IMG/VR virus record: IMGVR_UViG_3300033177_000056
Length of the DNA: 14,462 bases
Reading direction: 5' to 3' (one strand)
From: a virus
Under the pieces are notes generated by a model. The model saw nothing but the letters and a program-made list of their open reading frames with translations. It did not search any database and was not told the DNA's origin. This document shows positions 1,618 through 14,462 of this stretch, in pieces (position 1 is the first letter of the stretch; the number at the start of each line of letters is the position of its first letter). The position numbers and the translations under genes were made by a program.

Positions 1618-1630
1618 TTTCCACTGGAAC
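1618..1630. promoter_or_regulatory. Palindromic box TTTCCACTGGAAC (core TTCCA-N-TGGAA) in the terS 5' leader
   Basis: An exact 13-nt copy recurs at 1961-1973 and an inverted or variant copy at 1988-1998. This copy lies 13 nt upstream of the terS ATG, next to the SD. Confidence 0.5.
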
Positions 1631-1671
1631 TTTTGTCACCCCGCCCAGTTCTCCAGGCAGTGCCGAGATTT

Positions 1672-1947
1672 ATGGTAGAACCATGGTAGAACTGAACTCC
1701 CTATGGTAACTCCACAGAGGCGCTGCATAGCGTTATGGTACAAATGGTAGAAATGTGCGATGCTTAGTTTCCATACAGATTCATTGTACATATCTGTACA
1801 ACAGCTGCTGTACATAATTGTACAATGCCCTATACGAATTATTTCGCCATTATTTCTACCATTTGTACCATAACATACCATAAGGAATCTACTGATATCG
1901 ATTTCATCTATGGTAGAACTGAGAAAATCTATGGTAGAATGGTAGAA
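1672..1947. repeat. Iteron array: 9-mer ATGGTAGAA (often ATGGTAGAACT); putative replication origin
   Basis: Perfect direct copies at 1672, 1683, 1744, 1910, 1931 and 1939. One perfect inverted copy at 1854-1862. Degenerate copies at 1703 (atggtaac), 1735 (atggtac), 1865 (gtaccat) and 1875 (ataccat). Spacings of 11, 20-21 and 32 nt are close to helical multiples. The region is visibly more AT-rich than the rest of the genome. Confidence 0.65.
1782..1827. repeat. 46-nt quasi-palindrome with four TGTACA boxes symmetric about CAGCTG
   Basis: cattgtacatatctgtacaacag|ctgctgtacataattgtacaatg, with 19 of 23 arm positions complementary. TGTACA boxes at 1785, 1795, 1809 and 1819 are mirror-symmetric about 1804/1805. 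It sits between the direct and inverted iteron clusters. Confidence 0.7.
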
Positions 1948-1960
1948 CTTGAAAGGTCGA

Positions 1961-1998
1961 TTTCCACTGGAACTAGCCTCGAAATTCTCCAGTGGAAA
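1961..1998. promoter_or_regulatory. Second and third TTCCA-N-TGGAA boxes at the far edge of the origin-like region
   Basis: tttccactggaac at 1961-1973 is identical to 1618-1630. ccagtggaaa at 1989-1998 is its reverse complement. Confidence 0.5.
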
Positions 1999-2013
1999 TG
2001 GACCTTTGAAACC

Positions 2014-2027
2014 AAGTGCTAGCACTT
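2014..2027. terminator. Perfect 14-nt palindrome AAGTGCTAGCACTT just downstream of the primase-helicase stop
   Basis: The reverse complement of aagtgct is agcactt. It lies 25 nt 3' of the stop at 2052. It could be a hairpin or a protein-binding site; no clear T-run follows it. Confidence 0.25.
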
Positions 2028-2051
2028 CATTGGATAGATTCATAGGCAGTA

Positions 2052-4316
2052 TCAACTTCCACACCAGCTCGCCTTGGCTTTAATGTAACCCGGAGTTTCC
2101 TTCAAAGCGAGCTCTAGCTCTTCACTGGACGAGTTCGAAGCCAGCTTGATCCCATCGTAGTACTCGGCTGTCATGTCACGGGTCACCGCGATACCATGGG
2201 CACTCAACAGGTAGCGCCCGACCTTCCTCGGAGATAGCGCAAAGTAGCCGTACTCGGCACAGTATTCCTTGTACTCCTTGTGTAATTCGGCTCTCCGGAC
2301 CTTATATCGTTCACCCTTTATAACCCTGTAATCAACACTAATAAAAGTTTCCAGGCTATTACACGACAGCCTGTACTCCCTGTGCGTCACATCCGCACCG
2401 ACAGGCGGAGTTAGGCCGTGTTTGAGATACTCAGTGTAGCCTTGGATGCACCAGCGCAGGACAGCGCTAAGCTCGTTGTCTAGCTTGTTTCTAAGCATCC
2501 TGTCTATTCGCCCCTTGAAGCTGACGTGGAATGGAATGACCTTGATCCTATCCCAGGCGGCTGCCGTCGTTTCAGTGATCAGTGGCCTGGTGTTACCCGC
2601 GAGCCAGATCGTGGCCTGGGGGTTGAACTGGATCTCCTTCTGGTACAGGGACCTGGCCCTGATAGGGTCGCCGCCTGTCCACGGTTTCAGTACTTCCATA
2701 TTTAAAACAGCGTCATCTCCCGGCTCACCAGCGGAGATGAATCGCTTACCACGGAGGCTAACCAAATCATCGCGTATATCTCTGGAATTCTTCTTCCGAA
2801 GGAATGTGTCCATGTTAGCGTGGATGCCATACTCTCCGCACACACGACGGATGGTCGTCTGGAAGACGGATTTCCCGTTGTCTCCATCACCGGTCGCATC
2901 GTCACAGTAGAAGAAACATTTCTGGGACATGTCCCCTGAGATCCCGTAGCCCACGCATCTCTGGACCCAGTTCCTGATCTCCTCGTCGGGCCAGACCTCC
3001 GTGACGAACTTGTCCCACCGGGCGCCAGTTGCGTCGGGGTCCAGCTTACATCCTCCGATCAAGGTGATGTAGTCCTCGCGCTTAGGAGGATAGCTGGTTG
3101 CGTTTCTGAAGTCGACCGTCCCACCTTCGAATGTCATCTTCATAGGATCGGAGTCAAGCTCCGCGATGCTGATGGCGATGTCAGGATCCCGGGACGCGAG
3201 CGTGAGCATAGCGTTGCGGCCATGCAATGTGTCCGACGATTTGGCCCAGCACGGACCCTTCTCTTCACCGGAGTCTGGCATCAATGAGTATAGGTAGTCA
3301 ATCACCTCGTTTGCCATCGCGTGAATGGTGCTAGCAGCGTCCTCAGCCCATCTGTTGCCATCCCAGATGTACCAGGTCTTCGTCTGGCTGCAGTAGCGGA
3401 CATTCTCTCCGTGCAGCTTCTTGAACCGCAGTGCATTACCACCTTCGGTATTTTCGAAGTTGTCGCCCTTCGGTTGGATGTCTTGTATCATACCGACATC
3501 GATCATTGTCTGGCGGAGCTTAGACTTGTGATCGCGATAGATGTCAGCACACGCTATAACACCAGCGAGTAGGAGGATCAACGATTCCTTACCACCACCT
3601 CGCTGGCACGCATGGCAGAACCATACCTCGTCTTCGACGTTGATAGATAGGCACGTGCCGCTGACCGATCCATGACATGGGACCACTCCCTTCCATTCGT
3701 TGCCACCGCCTACGGTTGGTTCCCACTTGAAGTGCTCGAGGATCTCTGTTATGCTGAACTGGACTTTCCGCTTCATCATGTTCTCTATGGCTGTCTTCAA
3801 AGATACGTGCTTCTTCGCGTTGGTTGAGTAGCCTGAGAAGATGTCCACTAGCTCTGACACCGATAGCACGCGAACCGGCGCAGGATTGACGATTTCCCGT
3901 TTCCCCCCGCGCCAATTGGGGGAGTTGGGAGCTACCGCATTCGCACCGTTGGACTTGATCTCCGCGATCTTGATACCATCTTCGTTGAAGATATTGAACG
4001 GCCCCACGTGTAGCTCGGGGCACTTGTAGTAATAGTGCCTGCTAACATCACCGATGCCATCGGTCAGTGTCTCTGGCATCTTGGTATCGAATGCTGCTCG
4101 CCCATCGATGTTGTCGATGTCAATGACACAAGCTCCTCCGAACCCAGTGCAGATCCCATACGAGATGCCATCAGGAATCTCCGTCTCAGTGAACGAGTTG
4201 TTGATCGTGTTCCACTCCGCGCCGACAGGATTCTTCCCACTGTTCTTGTCACCGAGGACGACAGGCTTGAGCTTGGTGAACCTGAACCGCTGGCCTTTCA
4301 ACTGATCCGGGATCAT
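2052..4316 (-). CDS. Fused primase-polymerase (PrimPol) / CHC2-like zinc finger / D5-P4-type SF3 helicase (754 aa)
   Basis: N-terminal PrimPol motifs: GGACVIDIDNID (DxD), SRHYYYK, AEIKSNGANAVAPNS. Zinc finger: CHGSVSGTCLSINVEDEVWFCHAC. D5_N-like segment: GGNALRFKKLHGENVRYCSQTKTWYIWDGNRW. Walker A: GDGDNGKS. Walker B region: GKRFISAGEPGDD. Confidence 0.9.
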   Translation of the reverse strand: MIPDQLKGQRFRFTKLKPVVLGDKNSGKNPVGAEWNTINNSFTETEIPDGISYGICTGFGGACVIDIDNIDGRAAFDTKMPETLTDGIGDVSRHYYYKCPELHVGPFNIFNEDGIKIAEIKSNGANAVAPNSPNWRGGKREIVNPAPVRVLSVSELVDIFSGYSTNAKKHVSLKTAIENMMKRKVQFSITEILEHFKWEPTVGGGNEWKGVVPCHGSVSGTCLSINVEDEVWFCHACQRGGGKESLILLLAGVIACADIYRDHKSKLRQTMIDVGMIQDIQPKGDNFENTEGGNALRFKKLHGENVRYCSQTKTWYIWDGNRWAEDAASTIHAMANEVIDYLYSLMPDSGEEKGPCWAKSSDTLHGRNAMLTLASRDPDIAISIAELDSDPMKMTFEGGTVDFRNATSYPPKREDYITLIGGCKLDPDATGARWDKFVTEVWPDEEIRNWVQRCVGYGISGDMSQKCFFYCDDATGDGDNGKSVFQTTIRRVCGEYGIHANMDTFLRKKNSRDIRDDLVSLRGKRFISAGEPGDDAVLNMEVLKPWTGGDPIRARSLYQKEIQFNPQATIWLAGNTRPLITETTAAAWDRIKVIPFHVSFKGRIDRMLRNKLDNELSAVLRWCIQGYTEYLKHGLTPPVGADVTHREYRLSCNSLETFISVDYRVIKGERYKVRRAELHKEYKEYCAEYGYFALSPRKVGRYLLSAHGIAVTRDMTAEYYDGIKLASNSSSEELELALKETPGYIKAKASWCGS

Positions 4317-4807
4317 TCGCTACCACCAACGTAAAGCGCAACCGCGAGCGCAGCATCTATGACCCGCGGTATGTCGAGGAAGACATTATTCTTGCACAGC
4401 AAGTAGTTGTCAACCACAATTTCGGAAAGGACCTTCACGTTAGTGACAAGCTCCAGAGGAGGGATCGCATCAATAGCCCAGCCACATCGCCTGAGATTAT
4501 CCATCTGCAGCTTGCGTCTGACTGCCATCAGCTCTGCCCTGATGGCATCGGTCGTAGGAGAATATTCAGGTGCGTTCAGTACGACGTGCTGGAAGTGCAT
4601 CGATCGGATGGCAATATCTATCATCGCACTCTCATCGAAACAGAACTTGTGGGAGAGCTCTCTGAGCATCTCTTTCTCAGAGACCTCGTGCGATATTCTA
4701 TCACGCACGAGATCGCTGACGGTCCTACCGGACTCGGCAGCATCTCTCTTCAGCACTCGCATGTCGTCTTCGTCAACTCGTATGGTCAACCACTTCGATC
4801 TCGCCAT
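4313..4807 (-). CDS. Ribbon-helix-helix (CopG/Arc/MetJ-like) DNA-binding protein with an uncharacterised C-terminal domain (164 aa)
   Basis: The N-terminus KWLTIRVDEDDMRVLKRDAAESGRTVSDLVRDRI fits the RHH beta-alpha-alpha pattern. Its stop overlaps the primase-helicase start as ATGA (4316-4313). There is no SD; a TATA element is centred 27 nt upstream of the ATG. Confidence 0.7.
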   Translation of the reverse strand: MARSKWLTIRVDEDDMRVLKRDAAESGRTVSDLVRDRISHEVSEKEMLRELSHKFCFDESAMIDIAIRSMHFQHVVLNAPEYSPTTDAIRAELMAVRRKLQMDNLRRCGWAIDAIPPLELVTNVKVLSEIVVDNYLLCKNNVFLDIPRVIDAALAVALYVGGSE

Positions 4808-4824
4808 ACACTATGATGTGTGGC

Positions 4825-4843
4825 ACACCCTATATAAGGGTGT
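4825..4843 (-). promoter_or_regulatory. TATA-like box (minus strand TTATATA, 4837-4831) embedded in the palindrome ACACCCT-ATATA-AGGGTGT; putative promoter/operator of the RHH-primase operon
   Basis: Perfect 7-nt inverted arms at 4825-4831 and 4837-4843 with a 5-nt spacer. The TATA centre at 4834 is 27 nt from the A of the ATG at 4807. Confidence 0.5.
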
Positions 4844-4849
4844 TGCACC

Positions 4850-4920
4850 AGCGACTGGAAGAAGGCAGCGGCCCTTCGGGCTTCCCGCGCTGCGGCGCGG
4901 CGCTGCCATCTTCCGTCGCT
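4850..4920. other. 71-nt GC-rich Y-shaped (three-way junction) structure; candidate operon terminator, pac-type site or structured RNA
   Basis: The outer stem is 19 bp: 4850-4855/4915-4920, 4857-4862/4909-4914 and 4864-4870/4901-4907, with one bulge and one mismatch. It encloses hairpin gccc-ttc-gggc (4871-4881) and hairpin ccgcgc-tgcg-gcgcgg (4885-4900). Confidence 0.45.
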
Positions 4921-4988
4921 TCTCCAACCTTATTGATGAGCTGCGCTCCGGGGGTGCGTGGGGGGAAATATGTTGCTGATTGTGTCGG

Positions 4989-5237
4989 TCATAGAACAGC
5001 CATTCCTACCCCGATGGTCGCGGCAATCGCTATCACGCCACCCGCTGCGTATATGATGATGGTATGTCGCCAGACAGTTCCGTGAAGGTTGGACACCTCA
5101 CCGCGCATGGCAGCGAGGTTGGCGTCTTGCGCAGAGAACGAGTCATGCATGTCTGACCGGAGTCGAGATACTTCTGCTCGAATACTATCCATACTACCCT
5201 GGATGGCATTTAGTGTATTAAGTATCTGGTCGTTCAC
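4989..5237 (-). CDS. Small coiled-coil protein with a C-terminal transmembrane anchor (82 aa); function unknown, possibly holin-like or egress-related
   Basis: The C-terminus HTIIIYAAGGVIAIAATIGVGMAVL is hydrophobic. The N-terminal 55 aa look helical or coiled. The GTG start overlaps the upstream stop as GTGA (5237-5234), with GGTGGTGG upstream. Confidence 0.55.
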   Translation of the reverse strand: MNDQILNTLNAIQGSMDSIRAEVSRLRSDMHDSFSAQDANLAAMRGEVSNLHGTVWRHTIIIYAAGGVIAIAATIGVGMAVL

Positions 5238-5578
5238 TCGTCCACCACCGGAGCTAGGAACAGTGTCCTCATCGGGAGTTCCCCGTCGACGAGTGGCTCT
5301 GTTGTGAAGTTTAGTACCATGTAAGTAACGCCATCGAGCTTAAACGTATACAGTGGTCCGCCGGTGTGTGTGCGCGACGAGTCTATTTCTTCGTCAGTAA
5401 TGACCTCGACAGTCGACACGGTGAGCCTGCCGGCGTAGCTCATGACCTGCTGGTTCTTCCTGGTCCACCGAACCCAGATGATCTTCTGCCATCCAGGGAT
5501 AACCTCCACATACCCGCCAGCTCCCCGATGGGTAGCCTCCTTGATAGAGACTACCTGTTGGGTAAGATACTCATTCAT
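5234..5578 (-). CDS. Putative head-closure / head-tail joining protein (114 aa from ATG 5578)
   Basis: ATG 5578-5576 overlaps the upstream stop as ATGA and is preceded by GGTGAT. Its small beta-rich sequence (VVSIKEATHRGAGGYVEVIPGWQKIIWVRW..) and its position after the adaptor resemble SPP1 gp16 / HK97 gp9-class proteins. The ORF-track start at 5638 lies inside the upstream gene. Confidence 0.4.
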   Translation of the reverse strand: MNEYLTQQVVSIKEATHRGAGGYVEVIPGWQKIIWVRWTRKNQQVMSYAGRLTVSTVEVITDEEIDSSRTHTGGPLYTFKLDGVTYMVLNFTTEPLVDGELPMRTLFLAPVVDE

Positions 5579-6375
5579 ATGATCACCGCGTGGTCCAGGA
5601 AGTATCCTCGAAGCAACGTGACCGCAATGCTGGACCACATGGAATCGGGATCCTTGCCGACGAGCTCCTCGTGTAGACCGTCTTTGCCCATGGAGAAACT
5701 CCTAACTCCGTCTTGTCGCAGCCGGGCTCGGCGGGTGTCACCATACTTTAACATGACAAGAGCTTCCTCGCAACACGCCATCTTGACTACCAGTGGGACC
5801 TCGCCATCTCCCTCCCACTTCTCTGTCACGGGGTTGTAGAACTCCCGGGGGAACGCGTTGGTCTGTTCGCTGTCTACTTTCCGGCCACCGAACGGGAGCA
5901 TGTTGATCTTCCTGGTGGCCTCGCGCAGCAGGGGGAGACGCAGCCCAAGCCTGCTAGGAACGGGGTCAACTCCACCGTACAGATACGTCTTAGGAGTTTG
6001 GGCGATAAGCTCCGTGCCGTCGCCGGCGGACTCTGCTACAACGAGGGCAGCAGCATTTGCGTTTGCAGCTATCTGTGCGATCACGTCATCGTGGTCGGCG
6101 TCTTCACCATATTCGACTATGATACTTCGCCCGATGACGGATACCATCTCACCGAACTCCGCTGGTTCGAGCCTGACGTTGATCAGGTTGCCTTCAGCAC
6201 CTTCGGTGACCGCCGTGATAATCAGTGGCATGTCGGTCGATTCGACGGTGTTGCAATACATGTACGCAGCAGAGCCTTCCTCACCGGCGGAGAACCAGTC
6301 TAGTGCATACGGTTTGTTCTCAGGATCGAAGTACTCGTTCGCTTCGCTGAGCGTAGCATATTCTTCTGTAATCAT
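5575..6375 (-). CDS. Putative head-tail adaptor (gp6 / DnaT_2-like) with an inserted ~100-aa domain (266 aa from ATG 6375)
   Basis: The N-terminus [16 protein letters not shown] and the C-terminal [36 protein letters not shown] match the '..FPR....vP..v..A..e.A' pattern of head-tail connector/adaptor families. There is an ATGA overlap at 6375-6372. Confidence 0.5.
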
Positions 6376-7952
6376 GTTACCCATCCTACTAGATTGATAA
6401 TGGAGGACCCGTTGCCACCACGACTAAACGAAAACCGTTGTGATGCATTGGCTATAATGTACTGTTGATCGTTCGCGATCTGGGTTCCCCCGCGGTTGAT
6501 GTCGTGTGATGAACTCCCACCGTACTTACGGAGCCGCGTGGTGCCAGTCGATATGGTGAGCTTGTGAACTAAGATGATGGCAACAGCGCCTGCTGGGACG
6601 TTATTTGACACATCGACATCAACGAACGTGTTGCCAGCTCCGGACTGGGATCGGAACGTCACTGTGTCTCCGTTAGCCCAATTGTCTGCACTCGACACTG
6701 TAGTAACTGTATATGGCCCGGTCGCGACGTTTGTAGCAATGCGGAATGAATCCCGGGTGGAGTTGTAAACGAGAACCCTGCATGTGCCCTCGGGCATAAC
6801 TCCGGCTCCAGCCAACACGAAGCTCGTAGAGGTAGGATTACCGCTGATCGTAGTAGACAACACGTCGCTCGACGATCCAGCGATATACAGCACCTGAACT
6901 GGAGTTGCCAGGAGCTCCATGCCTCCACTGCCGGACGGTATATCACTGATCCGCATCCTGTAGTAGTCGCCGTCCCTGGCTACAAGAATGTAATCTCCGT
7001 CGTCGTAACCAGTGGTCCCAAGCCACCACATGTCATCGTCGTCTGCAGAACCAGTGGGTCCGGTGGGGCCGCTAGGCCCGGTCGGCCCGGGAACCGTGGA
7101 CGCGGCACCAGTCGGTCCTGTCGGTCCTGTCGGACCCGGTACGGTGGACCCAGCTCCGGTTGGCCCGGTGGGGCCAGACGGTCCAGTTGGTCCCTGACCG
7201 CCGATCGACGACATGAGTTGCCACCATTCGGCATCAGGCGGTTCCTTGTTTAGACAGTTGTCTTTGATACAAACGTAACTTGAACCACCACGGTTGACAG
7301 AGTCCTTCTTGTTATAGGTGGTACCACTGTCCCATGCGCCTAGGAACTCCAGGGCCCCTGCTTCGCCCTGAGCTCCGGTGGGGCCGGTCTTGCCGGTAGG
7401 CCCAGTTGGGCCAGTCACGGTAGAGTCAGCTCCAGTGGGTCCTGTTGCTCCTGCAGCGCCTGCAGCTCCGGTTGGGCCAGCGGGACCCGCCACGAGAGGA
7501 AGCTGACTAACCTGTGCCCTGAAGTAATCCCCGCCCCCATACCCGTGGATCCAGTCGTCAACAGATATGTCGCCGATCAGAACGTCTGCATCCATGAACG
7601 CCCCGCCACCGCCCCCTCCGGCAGGACCGGTAGCACCGGCTGGGCCGGTAGCACCTGTGGGACCTGTAGGGCCACCACCAAGTAGAGACGCTACTTGTGA
7701 CAAAGTGGCGGATCCGTAATACTTGGTCGAACCAATGTAGAATCCAACAAGAATCTTGTCGGTGGAATCAAGGGGCGCCACTGGGTCCAGGGTGAGGAAG
7801 TCGTCGTCGGGAGCACCACCCCCCCCAGCACCAGCTGGCCCGGTGGGTCCGGTCGATCCTGTCGGTCCCGATGGTCCGGTAGGTCCGGTGCGACCCCACG
7901 AGTCGTCGGTATGCCACTCGTTGCCATGTTGCCCGGGAAGGTCAGTCATCAT
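6372..7952 (-). CDS. Multi-domain collagen-like fibre protein (526 aa from ATG 7952): four G-X-Y segments, a CBM5/12-like module and a C-terminal beta-rich domain
   Basis: GPTGPxG runs lie at nt 7815-7892, 7602-7676, 7356-7490 and 7050-7202. The segment [38 protein letters not shown] (about 7212-7343) resembles a CBM5/12 chitin/carbohydrate-binding motif. There is an ATGA overlap at 7952-7949. Confidence 0.8.
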
Positions 7953-8974
7953 CCACCCCATATACCGCCCCAGCTACTGGCGGCTCCGATTTCCTCTTCT
8001 GACCCGAACGTACCCCATGCAGGTTCGTCTGCTATATATTTACGAGCGATGACCCAGAACACGTCTTCGGTGAACTGGGGGTAAGAACCGTACTTGGAGA
8101 ACTGGAACCCGAGCTTGTCGGCTCCTGACGCAGTGACGCCATTTATGGGTTTGAAACTCTCTGATACAAGTTCGATAGTGTAGTCGTTGCCGACCTTGGT
8201 TATACGATAGATGCCGGGGTACCAGGCGGCACTCTTGGATGTCGTGTACGCGAAGAATTCGTGTCCTGTATCGGACTTGGTAGACCCGGCCCATACGTAT
8301 GAGTAAGGGGAGCCATACGTAAGGTGGCTGGCCGACCCATGACCGTCGTCCGCCATCGATGCTACCAGACACTTCTCATTGCTGTCGTGGATAACCATGC
8401 CGGCGAGGCCCATCCCATGGGAACTTCCCGACCCGCCTGGGTGATATATAGACATGCTGTACTCGATGATTACGTTGGTGGGGATCGTCCATTTAGCAGT
8501 TAGCTGGTATGCGCCTTGGCCGGAGTTGCTGGGCCAATCACCCGGGTGACCAGTAACCCGGAGCTTACCACCACTTACAGACGACGTTAAATTATTGTTC
8601 TCCCACTTGTCTCCATCGAGGCTGGTCCCGGGGAAGTAATCGGCAAACTCGAACGTGTCGTCTGGATCAGACACATCGGTTGCTTCCGCGTCCCCGTAGT
8701 AAATATAATAATCCATCGCAGACGTAGCAACGTCTAGTCTGATCCAGAAACGCTGATATGTTGAATCACCGTATTCGGGGTCGCGTGCAAATGAAAGAGA
8801 GGTGCCAACCGAGTCCTTAAACAAGATGTCGTCTGGGAAACTCTCGCACTTGTCAGCAAGATGGACTTTTGTAGCAGTGTCGGTGCCGGTGCCTTTGTAG
8901 ACGTCGATCCACTTCTGGTACCCAGCTTGAGCAGCGTCTGCAGCTCCCAGCGGAAGTTTACGACGGTACTTCAT
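7949..8974 (-). CDS. DUF2341-like plus concanavalin-A/LamG-like domain protein (341 aa from ATG 8974); probable receptor-binding or virion-surface protein
   Basis: [20 protein letters not shown] resembles the DUF2341 signature (..YYGN..). It is followed by [16 protein letters not shown]....GGKLRV, typical of LamG/ConA-like jelly-rolls. There is an ATGA overlap at 8974-8971. It sits between the two fibre genes. Confidence 0.55.
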
Positions 8975-9717
8975 AGGAACGCCTTCCACTTATAGGGGTA
9001 ATCATCCGATGCCTTGATGTATACATTGGTAGCATCAGCACGAACCGTCACTGTACAATCATCGTCCTCGTCATCTCCGAGGGGGATGACTGCGACAAAC
9101 GGGGTGCCATTGAGCCCGTGAGCGATGGTCTGGAGGCTACCGGTGCCTTCAGACGTTCCGCCGGTAGCAGCAGAAAAGATCTCTGCTCCAGTCGGTCCTC
9201 GATCTCCAGTTGGTCCAGTTGGTCCAGTCGGTCCAGCCACGGTTGAATCGGCGCCAGTTGGTCCTCGATCTCCAGTTGGTCCTGTCATACCAGCTGGTCC
9301 GGTCGGTCCGGTCGGCCCCGTAGCCCCTCCCCCGCCAGCTCCGCCTGCCTGCATGACGAACTTGGTTCCGTCGTACACAAGGGCATCACCGACCTCCGGA
9401 GATGCAGTGGATACGGGGATCCCGGCGATCGACCGAACTCCATAGGGTTCATCGAGGGGGACGAGCGTATGCCACTCGTCACCCTCATACCAGTAGATCT
9501 CCCTGGCTTCCTTGTCGATCACTATGTTACCGGGTACCGGGTCTGCCGGCTTAGCTCCAACGATCGGGCGAAGAGGAGAGTCCGGGTCAAAGAATCCAGC
9601 TTGACGAACGCGCTCGACCGCCTCGTCGAAAGTTGGGGAAACCCGCCCGTGGAGCTCCGCGTAAGTGAGCGGCCTCTGAATCAAATTACGAAGGAGAATA
9701 TCTTCTGTAGTTACCAT
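8971..9717 (-). CDS. Collagen-like fibre protein (248 aa)
   Basis: [54 protein letters not shown] (nt 9187-9345) is flanked by globular N- and C-terminal domains. GGAGG lies 7 nt upstream of the ATG. Confidence 0.8.
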
Positions 9718-10738
9718 CCAATGCCTCCATCAATCTCTCCAGCATATTGGCACAACTATACCTGGATGCGTTTATAGACCCCTTTTCGACTATATCAGGG
9801 GGGGTTTCCAGGGCTAAAAGTACCTTATCGTGAATCTGCTTGTGGTCGAACGGATTGACCGTTAGCTCAGGGTAGCAGACACGGGCGGCCTCACAAGTAA
9901 CCGATGCGACCGTCGGGACGCCAAGCGCCGCAGCATCAACGACGCCTCGGCCGTAAGTGTAGTCTGGAGTTAGATCGAGGTTGATGGTAGCGCGAGACAA
10001 CAACGTTTCAATATACTGTTGATAATCGTGAGTAGGTACCACCCGATCAAACAGGGTCTCAAGATCTATTGTAGGAGGAATCTTGCCCGATACTCCGACG
10101 AGGAACCGCTTTAGTTTGATCGGGTGTAAACTGTAATAATAAGCTGACCACGTTGCGTGGTAGCGATGATACTGACACGTGGCCAGAGGCGGGTCAAACT
10201 TGGTCGCCCGCTTGCGGACAATCTCCAGGGCCTGTGTGTCGACTGGGTGAGGAATATGAAAAACCTTTCGATTGAGGTACCGCTCTAGCATGAAGGCACC
10301 GTACTCTTCGACATGGAATACGAGATCGGCGAGATCTAATTGTCGCTTCATCGTACGGGGTTCGATCGTCTCCCACATGCTGAGTGCATAGTCGATGTTT
10401 GCGATAATCTTGGTATCACTGTTACCGAGCGCCGAGCGAACGGCCTCGATGTAATGGGGATGGCCTGGAGTGTAGTTCACGTGGATGATGTCGTACTGCT
10501 CCAGGTAATCCCGTTCCAATGTGCAATACTCTTCTCCGACATGACCTGCTTTCCGGAAAGCGGTGAGCCATGACCTTATCCCAGACTGTATCAGCGGACC
10601 ACGGTAGATGGTGGGAATTGCATGGCAGCATATAGGAAGGGATGAATCGCTGTCCACCGAGATCACTTTTCTGCAGCTGGGACAGTACGCCTCATACTTA
10701 TCCGGAGTAAGGGGGCCGGAGAAGAGTAGATACTTCAT
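9686..10738 (-). CDS. GT-B fold glycosyltransferase (GT1/GT4-like), 350 aa from ATG 10738, with an N-terminal Cys-rich insert
   Basis: MKYLLFSG (Rossmann start), [35 protein letters not shown] and [30 protein letters not shown] follow the canonical GT4 pattern (..E.fG...lEAma.G.PVvas). The insert is [21 protein letters not shown]. There is an ATGA overlap at 10738-10735; the ORF-track start at 10843 lies inside the upstream gene. Confidence 0.6.
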
Positions 10739-11151
10739 CTGCTCTTGAACCCCATTACGCTTCCAGCGATCAGATAGTTGGACGAGTGCCCATGGGCGAT
10801 ATCCACTTCTATGGTGCCCTTCTTGTCGGCATCCTTCACCCACTTGAACCGCGCAGTCTCGAGCGGACCGAGAACTACTACGGATGCGTAGGTGGACAGG
10901 TCGCCGGTCGGCCGGCGCCAGGTGTAATCTCCAAGTCCAGACCTGGGTCCATCACCCGCTTTGACGGTGATACCATCGCTGGTGGAAGCCCCAGTAAGAT
11001 CGAACCGGAGCCAGAGGGCATCGTCGACATCACCAGACTCGATGACGAGACCGCTGGTGCTGGTGAACGTCTTTGGTGCAGCTATCTCATAGCCCATCTC
11101 GGGATCAGCAGCATACCCAAGATCAACGAAGGGGATCGGTGCTCTTGCCAT
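10735..11151 (-). CDS. Hypothetical beta-rich protein directly after the capsid gene (138 aa); possible capsid decoration or accessory protein
   Basis: The ATG is 1 nt after the MCP stop, with AGGTGA upstream. I recognise no motif; the suggested function rests on position only. Confidence 0.35.
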   Translation of the reverse strand: MARAPIPFVDLGYAADPEMGYEIAAPKTFTSTSGLVIESGDVDDALWLRFDLTGASTSDGITVKAGDGPRSGLGDYTWRRPTGDLSTYASVVVLGPLETARFKWVKDADKKGTIEVDIAHGHSSNYLIAGSVMGFKSR

Positions 11152-11152
11152 T

Positions 11153-12055
11153 TTAACTCACCTTCCTGCAGATCAGCATGGCAAGGGCATCCGGCCTGGC
11201 GACCTTGGCACCATACACATGGAGTCCCTTGACAGCATCTGCAAATCTCTTCTGAGGTCTATATGCCTCAACCTTGTTAACGCTGTCCGCGAAAGTCGTA
11301 GCAATTGGGGTGCCCGCTATTACATACGTCTGGGTCTTGGCCGACTCTCCGCCGGTCCCTGCACCGGTCGGGACGTTGTTACTTTCGAGAATATCGAAGC
11401 CAGCAGCACGCTTAACGAGACCGTTGAGCAGTGCATCCGTAGACGTGCTAGCAGCAGCATCGGAGAACCTCGGGTCACCAGACAGGCGCTCAACGAACCA
11501 GGGAGGTACAATAGCCCACCGACCCTGCTTGGGAACGTTGGCCTCAGACAGAACGGTACCAAGCTCCAGGAGATAATCCCATGCGGTGAGCTTCGTGCCG
11601 GCTTCGTCGGGCCGGAGATCCGGGACCTTAGCCGCGGCGGTCGTTCCGATAACGTTGCCAGCAGGCACGCTCGCCTTCATTATGCCAGCGATGTACTGGT
11701 CAGCAACGTCTGCAAGGTTATACGCGGACTGTTGCATAGCTCCGTTCATTAGGGTCGGTGCAGTCTGTGCCTGGTCGATATCATCGACAGCGAAGTTGAA
11801 GTATTTAGCCTGGGTGATCGAGAGCACACTCTGGGAGTCCTCGAGGGCCTCGGGGTCGGTTATGTCAGCGTCCTTGGTATAGTCACCGATGGTGATATCA
11901 CCGACAGACGTGATCTTAACCGTGCTGCCCTTGCCCTTGATCTCCCCCTCGTAGTCCCGATTGATCACGTTAGGCTGGCCGTACACGAGCGCCTTGTTGA
12001 GATTCTCAAGAAGTCTTGCGCTCCAGATGGTGGGAATGAATCCGTCAACTGCCAT
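11153..12055 (-). CDS. Major capsid protein, HK97 fold (P22-coat / N4-gp56-like family), 300 aa
   Basis: FIPTIWSARLLENLNKALVYGQPNVINRDYEGEIKGKGSTVKI and the C-terminal KGLHVYGAKVARPDALAML are characteristic of this capsid family. It directly follows the scaffold gene (TAA then ATG). Confidence 0.85.
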   Translation of the reverse strand: MAVDGFIPTIWSARLLENLNKALVYGQPNVINRDYEGEIKGKGSTVKITSVGDITIGDYTKDADITDPEALEDSQSVLSITQAKYFNFAVDDIDQAQTAPTLMNGAMQQSAYNLADVADQYIAGIMKASVPAGNVIGTTAAAKVPDLRPDEAGTKLTAWDYLLELGTVLSEANVPKQGRWAIVPPWFVERLSGDPRFSDAAASTSTDALLNGLVKRAAGFDILESNNVPTGAGTGGESAKTQTYVIAGTPIATTFADSVNKVEAYRPQKRFADAVKGLHVYGAKVARPDALAMLICRKVS

Positions 12056-12532
12056 TTATTTCACCGTACCTGCTTTCAACTGTGCAGATATATTTTCCCA
12101 ATCCGCGTTGACCTGTTCGGGTGTCATGGACTTTAGCTCCTGCGCGGTGTAGACGCGGGGCGGTGTGTTGGTAGTCCCTGGATTGGTGACTCCACCTACA
12201 GCGGTTTGCTTGACTCCTAAACTGGCCACCAGCTTGTCGGCACTGGCGGCCATCTCCTCCTTCGTTGATCCAACGACAAACTCGACCAACTCCGTGGGGA
12301 GTCCCTTGGCTGCGGCAATCTCTGCTCGCGTTCGCGTTACGGCAGACTGCGCCAACTCCCCCTCCAGCTTGGCGAGGGCGGCCCGCTCAGAAACAAGTTT
12401 CTCCTCCAGGTTAGTTATCCGCTTAAGAAGATCAGGGTCCATAGCGTTACGCGCTTCTCTGTCGCGAGCTAGACGTTCCTGAACTATGCGGTTAACATCT
12501 TCCTGTGTAAACTTCCTATCGTCTTCTGCCAT
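12056..12532 (-). CDS. Capsid scaffolding protein (DUF4355/GP20-like), 158 aa
   Basis: The FTQEDVNRIVQERLARDRE motif, coiled-coil character, C-terminal MTPEQVNADWENISAQL and its position between portal and MCP. Confidence 0.8.
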   Translation of the reverse strand: MAEDDRKFTQEDVNRIVQERLARDREARNAMDPDLLKRITNLEEKLVSERAALAKLEGELAQSAVTRTRAEIAAAKGLPTELVEFVVGSTKEEMAASADKLVASLGVKQTAVGGVTNPGTTNTPPRVYTAQELKSMTPEQVNADWENISAQLKAGTVK

Positions 12533-12586
12533 AATGCACCAACCTTAACGGCGGTTGTAACCTACACTGTATTATCGGGTTGAACA

Positions 12587-12600
12587 TATTTAAACTTTCG
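12587..12600 (-). promoter_or_regulatory. Archaeal-type BRE/TATA-like element: minus strand CGAAAG-TTTAAATA; putative promoter of the scaffold-capsid-fibre operon
   Basis: The minus strand reads ccGAAAGTTTAAATAtg, and the portal stop TAA lies within it. It is about 58 nt upstream of the scaffold ATG, which predicts a ~30-nt leader carrying GGTtGGTG. Confidence 0.5.
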
Positions 12601-14020
12601 GAACCAGGTCTGCCCTGGCCTGGCCCGCGTACTCAGACTGTTCTCGAGGGGGCTCGCCGATCTCCAGGGCTATGCGGACAAGCTCCGCCCTTGCCTCGGC
12701 CTCGGTGCATTCGTCAAGCCGCCGTATGGCACTCTCCTTGCTGGTCAGCCCGGAGTTCTTCCTGGCCTGTTCTATACGGGCGTCCTCGAGCACGTCGCGG
12801 GGCAAACCGTCGTTGAACTTGATCTTGTCTATCTTAACCTCGATAGCTCCAGGTATCCTACCGATTACATCCAGTTTCGAAGCGGCTTGTAAAGCGCGGC
12901 GGAGTGGAGTCTCAAACGCCAGTCTGATCCGGTTGGTACGACTGATCGTCCTCACCAGCAGCCGGCGCCACGCGGATCCGGTAACCGCCTGACCGGTCGG
13001 GAACCGGCCGAGAGCAGCGGGAGATAAGTCAGTAACATGATACAACATGTCCGTAATAACCTCCATCTCCTTGAAACTCGACGTGAGCTTGCCGTCCCAC
13101 TCGATGTACTGGGGGGGCTGGGCATCTCCACGAAGAGGGATGTAGCGGCCGTGGATCGAAACCTTGCGGGTACCGTCGGTCGGGTTGGTTTCAATCATAC
13201 TGTCTGGACCGGCCATTATGGGGCGGCTATGGATGTCAAGCACGTTCATGATGCGGACCATCCTGGACTCCAACTCCTTGACCAGATTGGCCATCACTTC
13301 GAAATCGGAAGTGCCGTACACATCTCCGCGTCGTCTGGAGTTGATGGCATAAAACACCAACGGATAACCTATGGAGTGGTGCTGGATTGGCTGGACGCCA
13401 ACATACTTCACGCTCATGTCCAGAGGGACCTGGTGATCGATGGTGTTGCCGTTCATCCACCAGAGCTGGTGCTCGACCGAATCGTCCCTGTGGATCTCCA
13501 CCTTGAGCAGCCTCGCGTGAGCTCCGCCTATCTGCTCGGTGAACACCCAGGCCAGAACATGCGCCCTTATATTAGTGACGTCATCGGGATCCACGATAGG
13601 GAACCAGATGCTCGGGTCAACATACCCTATCCGACTACCGCCATTGAACGACACCGAGTAGACACACTCGCCGAACTTGCAGTAATCTCTCGCAAGGTTG
13701 TGAAGCTCCTGGTACAGGTTGCTCCGGTCAACGATAGCTCCAAGCCCGTCCGGGAGGATGGGAGCTTCGCCAAACATGTAGTCAGCATATATGTCCGCCT
13801 CGACATGGAACCAGTTGAAGTCCAGAACCTTCGGGGCGCCGAGGGACTGGAGCATCATGTCAGCACGTTCAAGGTCAGTCATGGACCAGAGCTCCGGCCA
13901 CAACTTCTGGTGATCACCGTCGTACATCATCTGGTATTTCTCGTACCGCCTGAGCCGATCGTTCTCCTCGGGAGGGGGGAACTGCTTGGTCGGGGCTAGC
14001 CAGGACAGATCTGTCAGCAT
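12590..14020 (-). CDS. Portal protein (476 aa)
   Basis: Its size, its position between terL and the scaffold, and the N-terminal PPPEENDRLRRYEKYQMMYDGDH resemble SPP1-gp6-type portals. Confidence 0.8.
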   Translation of the reverse strand: MLTDLSWLAPTKQFPPPEENDRLRRYEKYQMMYDGDHQKLWPELWSMTDLERADMMLQSLGAPKVLDFNWFHVEADIYADYMFGEAPILPDGLGAIVDRSNLYQELHNLARDYCKFGECVYSVSFNGGSRIGYVDPSIWFPIVDPDDVTNIRAHVLAWVFTEQIGGAHARLLKVEIHRDDSVEHQLWWMNGNTIDHQVPLDMSVKYVGVQPIQHHSIGYPLVFYAINSRRRGDVYGTSDFEVMANLVKELESRMVRIMNVLDIHSRPIMAGPDSMIETNPTDGTRKVSIHGRYIPLRGDAQPPQYIEWDGKLTSSFKEMEVITDMLYHVTDLSPAALGRFPTGQAVTGSAWRRLLVRTISRTNRIRLAFETPLRRALQAASKLDVIGRIPGAIEVKIDKIKFNDGLPRDVLEDARIEQARKNSGLTSKESAIRRLDECTEAEARAELVRIALEIGEPPREQSEYAGQARADLVPKV

Positions 14021-14043
14021 ACTGGTTATTATACCTCTGATGG

Positions 14044-14050
14044 TATTTAA
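14044..14050 (-). promoter_or_regulatory. TATA-like box (minus strand TTAAATA) centred 27 nt upstream of the portal ATG
   Basis: The geometry matches the RHH gene: TATA centre at 14047, ATG at 14020, and no correctly spaced SD. A bacterial-looking TATAAT (14033-14028) is also present, so the reading is ambiguous. Confidence 0.4.
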
Positions 14051-14065
14051 GGCCGCTTGGGTCGG

Positions 14066-14072
14066 AAAAAAA
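14066..14072 (-). terminator. T7 run (minus strand) after terL without a preceding hairpin; archaeal-style oligo-T terminator candidate
   Basis: The minus strand reads ccccaaaTTTTTTTccgacc, about 80 nt 3' of the terL stop. I could fold no stem-loop immediately upstream. Confidence 0.4.
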
Positions 14073-14075
14073 TTT

Positions 14076-14151
14076 GGGGTTATGTTGGTGTGTGTGGTGA
14101 TGGTGTGCGTGCTACCTACTTGTTATGCTGTGCCGTGTTGCGGTGTGTGCC
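14076..14151. other. Strand-asymmetric G+T-rich (plus strand) / C+A-rich (transcribed strand) low-complexity tract between terL and portal
   Basis: ggggttatgttggtgtgtgtggtgatggtgtgcgtgctacctacttgttatgctgtgccgtgttgcggtgtgtgc has 60 of 75 bases as G or T by my count. Confidence 0.6.
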
Positions 14152-14462
14152 CTAGACGATGCTGTTAACAACATACCGCAATCCGTCTATAGGGTGGTCA
14201 TCCTCCTTCACCACCTGGTCGTCCGTGCTTGATTCGTCCCACTCGTAGTTCTCGATGCAATGTATCAGCCAAGGTACATTCCAAGTAAGTTTCAGCTTAC
14301 CAGTTTCAAGCATAGATGCAATGTGCCTGATACCATACACCACCTGGTTGTCCGCCGGGTGTGCCTGATACATCCCATCGTTCAGCAGCTGCAGTATAAA
14401 GCTGGCCGCCGACGGATCCACCTCGATCGTCGATGGATAATACCTGACCTCCTCCCCCCCGG
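14152..14462 (-). CDS. terL: Terminase large subunit, C-terminal (nuclease) part; 14336-14462 duplicates bases 1-127
   Basis: ORF-track entry 14152..14421 continues in frame upstream to the window end (..VRYYPSTIEVDPSAASFILQ..). The frame matches the 1-1139 segment after subtracting 14,335. It carries a C-terminal DDHPIDGLRY motif typical of terminase RNaseH-like nucleases. Stop TAG is at 14154-14152. Confidence 0.9.
   Translation of the reverse strand, partial: GGEEVRYYPSTIEVDPSAASFILQLLNDGMYQAHPADNQVVYGIRHIASMLETGKLKLTWNVPWLIHCIENYEWDESSTDDQVVKEDDHPIDGLRYVVNSIV
14336..14462. repeat. Right copy of the exact 127-nt terminal direct repeat (identical to 1-127)
   Basis: Same as the left copy. 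Confidence 0.95.

What the first reader, a model, noticed from the sequence alone, without database searches (positions are those of the whole stretch)
9686..10738. A glycosyltransferase inside the capsid/fibre operon, adjacent to GPT-type collagen-like fibres: possible self-glycosylating virion
The 350-aa ORF follows the GT-B/GT4 motif order. It is translationally coupled (ATGA) to the post-capsid gene and overlaps the first collagen-like fibre gene. Devoting 7% of a 14-kb genome to a GT is striking. GPT-repeat collagen-like proteins are known glycosylation substrates; Bacillus BclA is O-glycosylated on Thr within GPT triplets, and giant viruses glycosylate their collagen-like fibres with virus-encoded enzymes. 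The fibres here are dominated by GPTGPTG. The GT also carries an unusual Cys-rich insert (CPSC..x13..CCH) near its N-terminus and has D where the second Glu of the E-x7-E motif is usually found.
Basis: partly seen in the sequence, partly recalled or inferred. Interest (0 to 1): 0.7.

Follow-up and report, generated by a model that had tools for sequence, protein, structure and literature searches.

The report
Glycosyltransferase inside a mini-phage structural operon
A complete 14.3-kb phage genome carries a real sugar-transferring enzyme between its capsid and collagen-like fibre genes; it probably decorates the virus particle with sugars, but what it modifies is unproven and it is not tied to collagen in all relatives.

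Summary
Window 9686-10738 (minus strand) encodes a 350-aa protein. Its AlphaFold2 model (pLDDT 93) is a GT-B glycosyltransferase closest to retaining GT4/GT5/GT20 enzymes (BshA, PglA, PimA, glycogen synthase). It is ATGA-coupled to the 138-aa post-capsid gene and overlaps a GPT-rich collagen-like fibre gene by 32 nt. The window is a complete circular 14,335-bp genome, so the gene takes 7.3% of it.

The enzyme belongs to an uncharacterised, almost purely viral family: 166 clusters at E<=1e-30, none in cultured phages. Across the family of ~14-15-kb phages it always follows the post-capsid gene and diverges like a core gene (46-55% identity).

- For fibre glycosylation: the position is conserved; three of four collagen-bearing lineages add a second GT-A+TPR enzyme, in one lineage ATGA-coupled to the GPT-rich fibre gene, echoing C. 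difficile sgtA-bclA3; and GPT peptides need Thr glycosylation to form a triple helix.
- Against collagen as the defining acceptor: two relatives keep the enzyme (minus its zinc ribbon) with non-collagen fibres, and about 45 distant homologues lie in nucleotide-sugar clusters of large viral contigs with no collagen nearby.

Best reading: a late-expressed virion-protein glycosyltransferase, with fibres the likeliest target. Interest is moderate.

The parts
9686..10738 (-). Glycosyltransferase gene, 350 aa, GT-B fold, GT4-like.
   Evidence: ORF and sequence. AF2 pLDDT 93.4, pTM 0.90. Foldseek PDB top hits are glycogen synthase, PglA, BshA, PimA, MshA and OtsA at E~1e-9. Family profile versus BshA 2jjm gives E=0.004 across both domains. 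19 of 36 family members hit Pfam Glyco_transf_4 and 13 of 36 hit Glycos_transf_1.
10735..10738 (-). ATGA overlap: stop of the 138-aa gene and start of the GT gene (translational coupling).
   Evidence: Read directly. The homologues' N-termini support this start.
10598..10714 (-). Zinc-ribbon-like insert (about residues 9-47; C19, C22, C37, C38/H39) between beta1 and the Gly loop of the N-terminal domain.
   Evidence: Alignment A1 shows CxxC...CxC in the closest homologues and an absence in most of the family. AF2 models beta-hairpins with pLDDT above 90. Weak Zn_ribbon Pfam hits occur in family members. The tree places the insert in one clade, with one loss in L014/L034.
10568..10585 (-). N-terminal Gly loop (S52-G53-I54...W57). 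G53 and W57 are invariant.
   Evidence: This is the position of the GT4 'GG' loop that follows beta1 (established knowledge of GT-B enzymes).
10148..10168 (-). Invariant H191-R192-Y193...W197 loop after the first strand of the C-terminal domain. It occupies the place of the phosphate-binding Arg/Lys of GT4 enzymes.
   Evidence: Invariance in 36 of 36 sequences. Secondary structure. The functional role is inferred.
9911..9958 (-). Donor-binding helix motif T261-Y-G-R-G-V-V-D268-A-A-A-L-G-V-P-T276, the equivalent of the GT4 E-x7-E region. The second acidic residue is D268. The first Glu is absent (Y260, just upstream of this interval at 9959-9961).
   Evidence: HMM alignment to BshA, 'ESFGLVLLEAMACGVP'. 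Column counts.
10735..11151 (-). 138-aa post-capsid protein, all-beta, function unknown. It always precedes the GT gene in this phage family.
   Evidence: Only 8 homologues were found. The AF2 model is low-confidence (pLDDT 56) and gave no significant fold match.
8971..9717 (-). 248-aa fibre protein: a conserved N-terminal domain plus two short collagen-like runs (residues 131-157 and 162-179, nt 9181-9327), mostly GPT. Candidate acceptor.
   Evidence: Homologues follow the GT gene in the collagen-bearing mini-phage contigs and are absent from L014 and L034.
9686..9728 (-). 32-nt overlap of the GT 3' end with the fibre gene (9686-9717), plus the fibre gene's GGAGG ribosome-binding site (9724-9728) inside the GT coding sequence.
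   Evidence: Read directly.
7949..8989 (-). 346-aa DUF2341 protein between the two fibre genes (variable slot in relatives).
   Evidence: Pfam DUF2341 E=3.6e-12. It is replaced by other genes in L009 and L013.
6372..7961 (-). 529-aa fibre protein with seven short collagen-like runs (40 triplets, 19 GPT) and a CBM5/12-like module. Candidate acceptor.
   Evidence: Pfam Collagen 7e-07 and CBM_5_12 0.005. PHROG tail fibre 7e-28. Triplet counts.
11153..12055 (-). Major capsid protein (HK97-like), start of the head-decoration-GT-fibre gene string. Alternative acceptor.
   Evidence: Pfam Phage_capsid_4, Phage_capsid_2 and P22_CoatProtein.

Best explanation
The gene encodes a soluble GT-B, GT4-like (probably retaining) glycosyltransferase that depends on a nucleotide-sugar donor.

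Expression (inferred from the sequence): it is made late, from the same message as the capsid, the 138-aa protein and the fibres. The evidence is the ATGA coupling upstream and the 32-nt overlap with the fibre gene downstream.

Donor (inferred): the 14.3-kb genome has no sugar-activation genes, so the enzyme must use a nucleotide sugar from the host pool.

Acceptor (inferred): I infer that it transfers the sugar onto a surface protein of the virion in the cytoplasm, before or during assembly. The likeliest acceptors in this phage are Thr/Ser residues of the two fibre proteins, including their GPT triplets. Glycosylation there would stabilise the short triple helices and/or mask or tune the fibres.

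The zinc-ribbon insert in the acceptor-side N-terminal domain is a candidate acceptor-recognition or oligomerisation module.

Shown: the fold, the conserved cleft residues, the gene position and its conservation, and the family context.

Inferred: catalytic activity, retaining stereochemistry, donor identity, that the acceptor is a protein, and that it is the fibre.
For: 1. Fold: AF2 pLDDT 93.4. All top Foldseek PDB hits are GT-B transferases, and BFVD hits are viral GT-B enzymes.
2. It looks like a live enzyme. 29 columns are invariant across 36 sequences at 36-55% identity to the window protein. They include the Gly loop (G53), D83/H86/N88, D116, E144, H164, H191-R192-Y193, T261-G263-R264-G265 and an acidic 268.
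3. Family members are fused to SAM methyltransferases or to a GT2 domain. Distant homologues sit inside nucleotide-sugar pathways: UDP-GlcNAc 3-dehydrogenase, UDP-ManNAc dehydrogenase, DegT, acetyltransferase and WbuX amidotransferase. It is therefore a glycan-building enzyme.
4. In every contig of the mini-phage family that covers the region, the gene follows the 138-aa post-capsid gene. It diverges like a core gene: GT 46-55% versus portal 51-54% and MCP 65-84%.
5. A second GT of GT-A+TPR architecture, with a weak SunS peptide-glycosyltransferase hit, occurs in three of four collagen-bearing lineages and in neither collagen-free contig. In L013 it is ATGA-coupled to the GPT-rich fibre gene. 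This mirrors sgtA immediately upstream of bclA3 in C. difficile, where SgtA O-GlcNAcylates Thr of GPT repeats (PMC7157674).
6. GPT (TGP) triplets are anomalously frequent in viral collagen-like proteins, and (Gly-Pro-Thr)10 folds only when Thr is glycosylated (PMC11923368).
7. Phage-encoded GTs that glycosylate capsid and tail-tube proteins are documented in mycobacteriophages.
8. The family is acidic (median pI 5.6), unlike typical membrane-associated lipid-acceptor GT4 enzymes. This is weak evidence.
9. No integrase or lysogeny module is present, which argues against serotype conversion.
Against: - No direct evidence of any glycan on any protein.
- L014 and L034 keep the GT with a non-collagen fibre, and L013's homologue of the 248-aa fibre lacks collagen repeats. 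Collagen is therefore not required for retention of the GT.
- About 45 distant homologues have no collagen-like ORF within 10 kb.
- The only gene shared between the mini-phages and those large contigs is the GT itself, so no conserved acceptor can be named.
- The first Glu of E-x7-E is missing.
- The link between zinc ribbon and collagen rests on a single evolutionary loss. Zinc-ribbon forms also occur in large contigs without nearby collagen, L017 and L035.
- The window phage lacks the GT-A+TPR partner that is the better candidate for the initiating Thr transferase.
- GT4 enzymes most often act on lipid-linked or small-molecule acceptors (hits).
Confidence: 0.5

Rival explanations
1. The enzyme modifies a host envelope glycopolymer or its lipid-linked precursor (teichoic acid, S-layer glycan, capsule or LPS-type). 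This would mask the receptor late in infection, causing superinfection exclusion or preventing progeny from sticking to debris. It would not modify the virion.
For: - The closest solved structures act on lipid-linked or small acceptors: PglA, PimA, BshA and MshA.
- Distant homologues sit in clusters that look like O-antigen or archaeal N-glycan sugar pathways.
- Host-serotype modification by phage GTs is a known role.
- The GT is retained irrespective of fibre type.
Against: - The phage has no integrase or lysogeny module.
- The gene is embedded and coupled inside the late structural operon, not in a moron or early region.
- The protein and its family are acidic, with no predicted membrane-binding feature.
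- Envelope remodelling within one lytic cycle is slow.
- A TPR-bearing second GT in relatives points to protein substrates.
Confidence: 0.2
2. It is a virion glycosyltransferase, but the acceptor is the capsid surface (the MCP or the 138-aa post-capsid protein), as in mycobacteriophages and chloroviruses. The fibres are not the acceptor.
For: - The only invariant neighbour of the GT across the whole mini-phage family is the 138-aa gene upstream, ATGA-coupled in the window.
- The GT persists when the collagen fibres are replaced.
- Mycobacteriophage glycans are on capsid and tail-tube subunits.
Against: - Neither the MCP nor the 138-aa protein has a Ser/Thr-rich tail or a repeat that suggests a glycosylation site (sequences; S+T 13-17%).
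- The 138-aa protein could not be identified.
- Large-virus homologues have no MCP or p138 homologue.
Confidence: 0.15
3. It is a DNA glycosyltransferase like T4 alpha- or beta-glucosyltransferase (also GT-B). It would hypermodify phage DNA to evade restriction.
For: - The GT-B fold is shared with T4 AGT and BGT (established knowledge).
- Virus GTs that glycosylate DNA are diverse (Pyle 2024, cited).
- A short thymidylate-synthase-like gene lies near the GT in some large-virus loci: L020, L021, L022, L038, L039 and L042.
Against: - The 14.3-kb genome encodes no thymidylate-synthase or hydroxymethylase homologue, no DNA polymerase and no dNTP-modifying enzyme. There is therefore no hydroxymethyl-pyrimidine to glycosylate.
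- The gene is in the structural operon.
- No T4 AGT or BGT appears among the 50 best fold matches listed.
Confidence: 0.03
4. The protein is a catalytically dead GT-B fold recruited as a structural or assembly factor (for example a fibre chaperone or virion component).
For: The first Glu of E-x7-E is lost, the Pfam score is sub-threshold, and the gene lies between structural genes.
Against: - Invariant residues line the canonical donor and acceptor cleft positions across a family spanning 36-55% identity to the window protein.
- Homologues are embedded in sugar-nucleotide pathways and fused to methyltransferases.
- An acidic residue at 268 is strictly kept as D or E.
Confidence: 0.07

Closest known systems
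Retaining GT-B glycosyltransferases of CAZy GT4 (BshA, PglA, PimA, MshA) and the related GT5 and GT20 (glycogen synthase, OtsA)
   Same: - Two-Rossmann-domain GT-B fold.
- N-terminal Gly loop.
- C-terminal 'G-x-G...(D/E)-A-x-A-x-G-x-P' donor helix.
- Arg after the first C-domain strand.
- Best sequence-profile and fold matches.
   Different: - Only 10-16% identity, and the Pfam score is below the gathering threshold.
- The first Glu of E-x7-E is absent and an invariant Arg (R264) sits in the motif.
- A zinc-ribbon insert follows beta1.
- The family is almost exclusively viral.
Mycobacteriophage virion glycosylation (Che8 gp110, Corndog gp38, Myrna; Freeman et al. 2023, as cited in PMC11256854, PMC12363180 and PMC12619734)
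   Same: A phage-encoded glycosyltransferase in a tailed phage. The proposed outcome is glycans on virion surface proteins.
   Different: - No detectable sequence homology: tblastn of the window GT against 50,697 phage records found nothing.
- Those phages are 50-150 kb with several GTs. Their glycans are on the C-termini of capsid and tail-tube proteins, not on collagen-like fibres.
- Here glycosylation is not demonstrated.
C. difficile SgtA-BclA3 and B. anthracis BclA: O-glycosylation of Thr in GPT collagen-like repeats
   Same: A GPT-dominated collagen-like protein encoded immediately next to a glycosyltransferase gene (PMC7157674). Relatives of this phage even carry a GT-A+TPR enzyme of SgtA-like architecture coupled to the fibre gene.
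   Different: - The window's enzyme is GT-B, not GT-A+TPR.
- The window lacks the GT-A+TPR gene.
- The system is viral, not a spore surface.
- Homology of the phage GT-A+TPR to SgtA was not tested.
Giant-virus and chlorovirus self-encoded glycosylation (PBCV-1 A064R, a GT+GT+methyltransferase; Mimivirus fibril glycans)
   Same: Virus-encoded GTs build glycans on virion proteins independently of host glycosylation machinery. GT-methyltransferase fusions exist in this family too. Giant-virus GT-B proteins appear among the fold matches.
   Different: Those are eukaryotic viruses with genomes 20-100 times larger that also encode their own sugar-nucleotide pathways. This 14.3-kb phage encodes only the transferase.

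Membership tests
GT-B fold glycosyltransferase superfamily | Two Rossmann-like beta/alpha/beta domains facing a central cleft | tested here: met
   AF2 pLDDT 93.4, pTM 0.90, with alternating beta/alpha elements in two halves. Foldseek finds 232 PDB matches at E<=0.001, and the top 50 are all GT-B enzymes with TM 0.52-0.65 apart from one chain at 0.41.
GT-B fold glycosyltransferase superfamily | Conserved nucleotide-sugar-binding elements in the C-terminal domain and a Gly loop in the N-terminal domain | tested here: met
   G53 loop, H191-R192, T261-G-R-G...D268-A-A-A-L-G-x-P275 are invariant or nearly so. They align to the BshA donor helix.
GT-B fold glycosyltransferase superfamily | Glycosyl transfer from an activated donor | not testable with these tools
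   Needs an enzyme assay.
CAZy GT4 / Pfam Glyco_transf_4 + Glycos_transf_1 | Score above Pfam gathering thresholds | tested here: not met
   The window protein scores 14.8 bits on Glyco_transf_4 against a cutoff of 28.5. 19 of 36 relatives hit at E<=0.1, best 2.1e-5. One (P0022) carries a precomputed PF13439 hit.
CAZy GT4 / Pfam Glyco_transf_4 + Glycos_transf_1 | E-x7-E motif | tested here: not met
   The first Glu position is Y260 and varies in the family. The second is D268, with 30 D and 6 E.
CAZy GT4 / Pfam Glyco_transf_4 + Glycos_transf_1 | Retaining stereochemistry | not testable with these tools
   Inferred only from the nearest structural neighbours.
Phage-encoded virion glycosylation systems (mycobacteriophage type) | Phage-encoded GT homologous to Che8 gp110 or Corndog gp38 | tested here: not met
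   tblastn of the GT against the INPHARED phage collection found no match at E<=1e-3.
Phage-encoded virion glycosylation systems (mycobacteriophage type) | Glycans covalently attached to virion proteins | not testable with these tools
   Needs mass spectrometry or glycostaining of virions.
Collagen-like GPT-repeat O-glycosylation (BclA / BclA3-SgtA type) | GPT-rich collagen-like acceptor encoded adjacent to the GT | tested here: met
   The GT overlaps the 248-aa fibre gene. 27 of 55 triplets are GPT. The pair recurs in L007-L012, L027-L032 and L081; in L013/L033 the gene after the GT lacks collagen repeats. It is not universal: L014 and L034 lack collagen.
Collagen-like GPT-repeat O-glycosylation (BclA / BclA3-SgtA type) | GT-A + TPR O-GlcNAc-transferase architecture (SgtA) | tested here: not met
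   The window GT is GT-B. A GT-A+TPR gene exists only in relatives, at L010 7030-8127 and L013 12287-13378.
Phage DNA glycosyltransferases (T4 AGT/BGT type) | Co-encoded hydroxymethyl-pyrimidine synthesis (dCMP or dUMP hydroxymethylase) | tested here: not met
   No Thymidylat_synt or related hit on any gene of the 14.3-kb genome.

The most novel reading that the evidence does not exclude
The zinc-ribbon GT-B enzyme is a dedicated O-glycosyltransferase for Thr (or Ser) of the phage's own GPT-type collagen-like fibres. This glycosylation would be needed for the short triple helices to fold or remain stable. It would be the first tailed phage shown to glycosylate its own fibres with a self-encoded enzyme, in a genome of only 14.3 kb. 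It would also answer experimentally why GPT triplets are over-represented in viral collagens.
Probability: 0.25. Interest if true: 0.8.

Novelty: new variant of a known kind. Interest (0 to 1): 0.55.

Why it matters
- Virus-encoded glycosylation of virions is well known for giant and archaeal viruses. For tailed phages it has been shown only recently, in large mycobacteriophages.
- Here a transferase is a fixed, core-like gene of the structural operon in one of the smallest tailed-phage genome types (14.3 kb). In so small a genome, a gene retained across the whole family is likely to matter for virion production.
- It sits next to GPT-rich collagen-like fibres. GPT triplets are anomalously common in viral collagens, GPT peptides fold only when Thr is glycosylated, and whether such glycosylation happens in viruses is an open question (PMC11923368).
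- The system is minimal: one enzyme and two small fibre genes, all clonable. That makes the question directly testable.
- It also defines an uncharacterised, almost purely viral GT-B family (166 clusters at E<=1e-30). In larger viruses this family is wired to pathways for unusual diacetamido-uronic-acid-type sugars.

Tried and rejected
- Single-sequence searches of the GT gave nothing: phmmer against PDB sequences, PHROGs, NCBIfam and tblastn against cultured phages. The assignment rests on the family profile and the predicted fold.
- The 138-aa neighbour could not be identified. It has only 8 homologues, its AF2 model has pLDDT 56, and Foldseek gave no match better than E=0.016.
- Neighbours of the GT in the large viral contigs had no Pfam or PHROG hits, including the presumed capsid proteins. 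I therefore could not test whether the GT cluster adjoins structural genes there.
- The ~315-aa 'A2' protein that accompanies the GT in large contigs resembles the GT only weakly (hhalign E=0.014, probability 3%). It has no relevant PDB sequence hit: the only match is endonuclease IV at E=0.19. I do not call it a paralogue.
- I considered the zinc ribbon as a collagen-recognition module. The correlation (ribbon lost where collagen is lost) rests on one lineage. Ribbon-bearing forms also occur in large contigs without nearby collagen, L017 and L035. It remains only a hypothesis.
- DNA glycosylation is rejected for this phage because no hydroxymethylase is encoded.
- Lysogenic serotype conversion is disfavoured because no integrase or repressor module is present.
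- The primary paper on mycobacteriophage virion glycosylation (PMC10527164) is not held. It is cited through three papers that describe it.
- Genome-collection relatives are only four MAG contigs binned as Acholeplasmataceae or Parcubacteria. These are probably mis-binned viral contigs, so the host remains unknown.
Full report
**1. What is in the window**

All long ORFs lie on the minus strand and form a compact phage genome. In order they are:
- terminase, which spans the window ends
- portal, 12590-14020
- DUF4355 scaffold, 12056-12532
- HK97-type major capsid protein, 11153-12055
- a 138-aa protein, 10735-11151
- the 350-aa candidate, 9686-10738
- a 248-aa collagen-like fibre, 8971-9717
- a DUF2341 protein, 7949-8989
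- a 529-aa collagen-like fibre, 6372-7961
- an adaptor-like 269-aa protein
- three small ORFs
- a PrimPol-D5 helicase, 2052-4316
- two further small ORFs

The window has a 127-nt exact terminal overlap. Independent assemblies of the same genome start at different points. It is therefore a complete circular or permuted genome of 14,335 bp, and the candidate gene is 7.3% of it.

**2. Check of the observation**

- The ATG at 10738 overlaps the stop of the 138-aa gene as ATGA.
- The gene's last 32 nt overlap the 248-aa fibre gene, which has a GGAGG seven bases upstream of its ATG.
- Homologues start at the same position, which rules out the longer GTG ORF.
- The two fibres contain 55 G-X-Y triplets, 27 of them GPT and 35 with Thr in the Y position.
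- The Cys-rich insert is C19-x2-C22-x14-C37-C38-H39. In homologues it is CxxC...CxC.
- D268 stands at the second Glu of the GT4 E-x7-E motif. The first Glu position is Y260 and is not conserved.

**3. Is it a glycosyltransferase?**

The single sequence is nearly silent:
- Pfam Glyco_transf_4 E=0.029, below threshold
- no PHROG, NCBIfam or PDB sequence hit

The family-level evidence is clear:
- The protein has 46 homologues.
- An alignment of 36 of them (A1) gives a profile that matches B. anthracis BshA across both domains at E=0.004.
- 19 of the 36 members hit Glyco_transf_4 and 13 hit Glycos_transf_1.
- AlphaFold2 with this alignment gives pLDDT 93.4 and pTM 0.90.
- Foldseek returns only GT-B transferases at the top: glycogen synthase, PglA, BshA, PimA, MshA and OtsA, at E~1e-9 and TM 0.52-0.65 apart from one chain at 0.41.
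- The viral structure library returns viral GT-B enzymes.

Twenty-nine columns are invariant at 36-55% identity to the window protein. They fall where GT4 enzymes bind donor and acceptor:
- the Gly loop (G53)
- D83/H86/N88, D116, E144 and H164
- H191-R192-Y193
- T261-G-R-G
- an acidic residue at 268

I conclude with high confidence that this is a live GT-B enzyme related to, but outside, curated GT4.

**4. The wider family**

A profile search of 1.84 billion representatives finds 166 clusters at E<=1e-30 and 323 at E<=1e-10. Several members are fusions with class-I SAM methyltransferases, and one is a fusion with a GT2 domain.

There is no match in 50,697 cultured-phage records. Among 185,579 species genomes there are only four MAG contigs.

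I fetched 92 loci and scored their context. I also built a tree of 60 distinct GTs. Two contexts emerge.

(a) A family of ~14-15-kb phages syntenic with the window.
- The GT gene always follows the 138-aa gene.
- It diverges at the pace of core genes: GT 46-55%, portal 51-54%, MCP 65-84%.

(b) About 45 loci from 20-80-kb viral-looking contigs.
- There the GT lies beside a ~315-aa partner protein and nucleotide-sugar genes.
- These genes are archaeal-type UDP-GlcNAc 3-dehydrogenase, UDP-ManNAc dehydrogenase, two DegT aminotransferases, acetyltransferases, a 4,6-dehydratase and a WbuX amidotransferase.
- This is a pathway for diacetamido-uronic-acid-type sugars.
- Only the GT is shared between the two contexts.

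**5. Bearing on the acceptor**

Evidence for fibre glycosylation:
- The GT-fibre adjacency recurs in L007-L012, L027-L032 and L081; in L013/L033 the gene after the GT lacks collagen repeats.
- Three of the four collagen-bearing lineages carry a second transferase with Pfam Glycos_transf_2 plus TPR and a weak SunS peptide-glycosyltransferase hit.
- In one lineage group this second gene sits between portal and scaffold (L010). In L013 it sits immediately upstream of, and ATGA-coupled to, the 709-aa GPT-rich fibre gene.
- That architecture and arrangement match C. difficile sgtA-bclA3. SgtA (GT-A+TPR) adds O-GlcNAc to Thr of GPT repeats, and its gene lies directly upstream of bclA3 (PMC7157674).
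- Neither collagen-free mini-phage contig has this second GT.
- GPT (TGP) triplets are anomalously frequent in viral collagen-like proteins.
- (Gly-Pro-Thr)10 is a random coil unless its Thr residues are glycosylated. Whether this glycosylation occurs is stated to be open (PMC11923368).

Evidence against collagen as the defining acceptor:
- L014 and L034 keep an intact GT that lacks the zinc ribbon. They have a single non-collagen fibre and no homologue of the 248-aa protein.
- L013's homologue of the 248-aa protein has no collagen repeats.
- None of the distant loci has a collagen-like ORF within 10 kb.
- The zinc ribbon marks one clade that also includes large-contig members (L017, L035), and it was lost once. 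Its link to collagen is a single event.

**6. Mechanism I consider most likely (confidence about 0.5)**

The enzyme is made late with the head and fibre proteins. It uses a host nucleotide sugar, because the phage encodes no sugar-activation genes. It glycosylates a virion surface protein in the cytoplasm.

In this phage the fibres are the best candidates. Sugars on Thr of GPT triplets would stabilise the short, interrupted triple helices and/or shield the fibres.

Shown: fold, conserved cleft, operon position and family context. Inferred: activity, donor and acceptor.

Rivals, each with its estimated probability:
- Host-envelope glycan modification for receptor masking, 0.2. GT4 enzymes commonly use lipid-linked acceptors, but the gene is in the structural operon of a phage without a lysogeny module.
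- Capsid or 138-aa protein as acceptor, 0.15. The 138-aa gene is the only invariant neighbour, but it could not be identified.
- A dead, structural GT fold, 0.07. The conserved cleft residues and the sugar-pathway context contradict it.
- DNA glycosylation, 0.03. No hydroxymethylase is encoded anywhere in the genome.

**7. Comparison with the known**

The enzyme works like a GT4-type GT-B transferase but fails two GT4 membership features: the Pfam threshold and the first Glu of E-x7-E.

The system resembles mycobacteriophage virion glycosylation and giant-virus self-glycosylation, but shares no sequence homology with the mycobacteriophage enzymes.

It also resembles BclA/BclA3 glycosylation in its substrate type and gene adjacency. 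However, the window's enzyme is GT-B, not GT-A+TPR.

I class it as a new variant of a known kind: a virus-encoded glycosyltransferase acting on, or near, the virion.

**8. Verdict**

- The finding is not ordinary. A core-like glycosyltransferase in a 14.3-kb tailed-phage genome, flanked by GPT-collagen fibres, offers a minimal and testable system for an open question about viral collagens.
- The key functional claim remains unproven, and the comparative data show the enzyme is not collagen-dependent across its family.
- Interest is 0.55.

Noticed in passing
window 1-14462 (127-nt terminal overlap): The window is a complete circular or permuted genome of 14,335 bp, among the smallest tailed-phage genome types. 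It has terminase, portal, scaffold and HK97-type capsid genes, two fibres and a single PrimPol-D5 helicase as its replication gene. No recognisable tail-tube, tape-measure, endolysin, holin or integrase gene was found.
   Followed up: partly
L010 7030-8127; L013 12287-13378; also L009, L027, L028, L030, L031, L033: Many relatives carry a second glycosyltransferase (Pfam Glycos_transf_2 + TPR, weak SunS-family hit) at two different positions in the structural module. In L013 it is ATGA-coupled to the 709-aa GPT-rich fibre gene. This is the same architecture and arrangement as C. difficile sgtA-bclA3. The window phage lacks it.
   Followed up: partly
L014 3934-6358; L034: Two related mini-phage contigs have a GT without the zinc-ribbon insert. 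In place of both collagen fibres they have a single 496-aa non-collagen fibre with repeated '...DDDHTQY(A/V)LRS(I/V)LTEQGS...' units. Its N-terminus resembles that of the 529-aa fibre.
   Followed up: partly
L018, L020, L021, L038, L039, L041, L042 and others (GT at about 10,000 in each locus): Distant GT homologues lie in 20-80-kb, almost unannotatable viral contigs. They sit inside a full pathway for diacetamido-uronic-acid-type sugars, whose best matches are archaeal equivalogs, plus a WbuX amidotransferase. In some loci there is also a short (208-229 aa) thymidylate-synthase-like gene. The hosts may be archaea (methanogens) from digesters and landfills.
   Followed up: partly
L021 10761-11705; L018 10963-11928; L022 9047-10000; L016 8407-9408; L015 8938-9861: A conserved ~315-aa protein of unknown family accompanies the GT in nearly all large-contig loci. 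It has a '...Y-G-x-N-x-L-E-A...' motif reminiscent of a GT-B donor helix, but only a weak profile match to the GT (hhalign E=0.014).
   Followed up: partly
P0066, P0068, P0070, P0072, P0074, P0123, P0147, P0148, P0090: Family members occur as fusions with class-I SAM methyltransferase domains at either end, and one occurs fused to a GT2 domain. This suggests methylated glycans, as in chlorovirus A064R.
   Followed up: no
window 6372-7961 (about residues 209-250 of the 529-aa fibre); L013 13375-15504: The long fibre carries a CBM5/12-like carbohydrate-binding module (Pfam E=0.005) between collagen runs, and L013's fibre has two copies. This is likely the receptor-binding part.
   Followed up: no
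L010 (contig IMGVR_UViG_3300037067_000271, 28,416 bp): This contig contains the ~14-kb genome twice in tandem: primpol, terminase and portal each appear twice. It is either an assembled concatemer or an assembly artefact of a circular genome.
   Followed up: no
window 4989-5237: The 82-aa protein ends in a hydrophobic segment (...YAAGGVIAIAATIGVGMAVL). It is the only holin-like candidate in a genome with no recognisable lysis genes.
   Followed up: no
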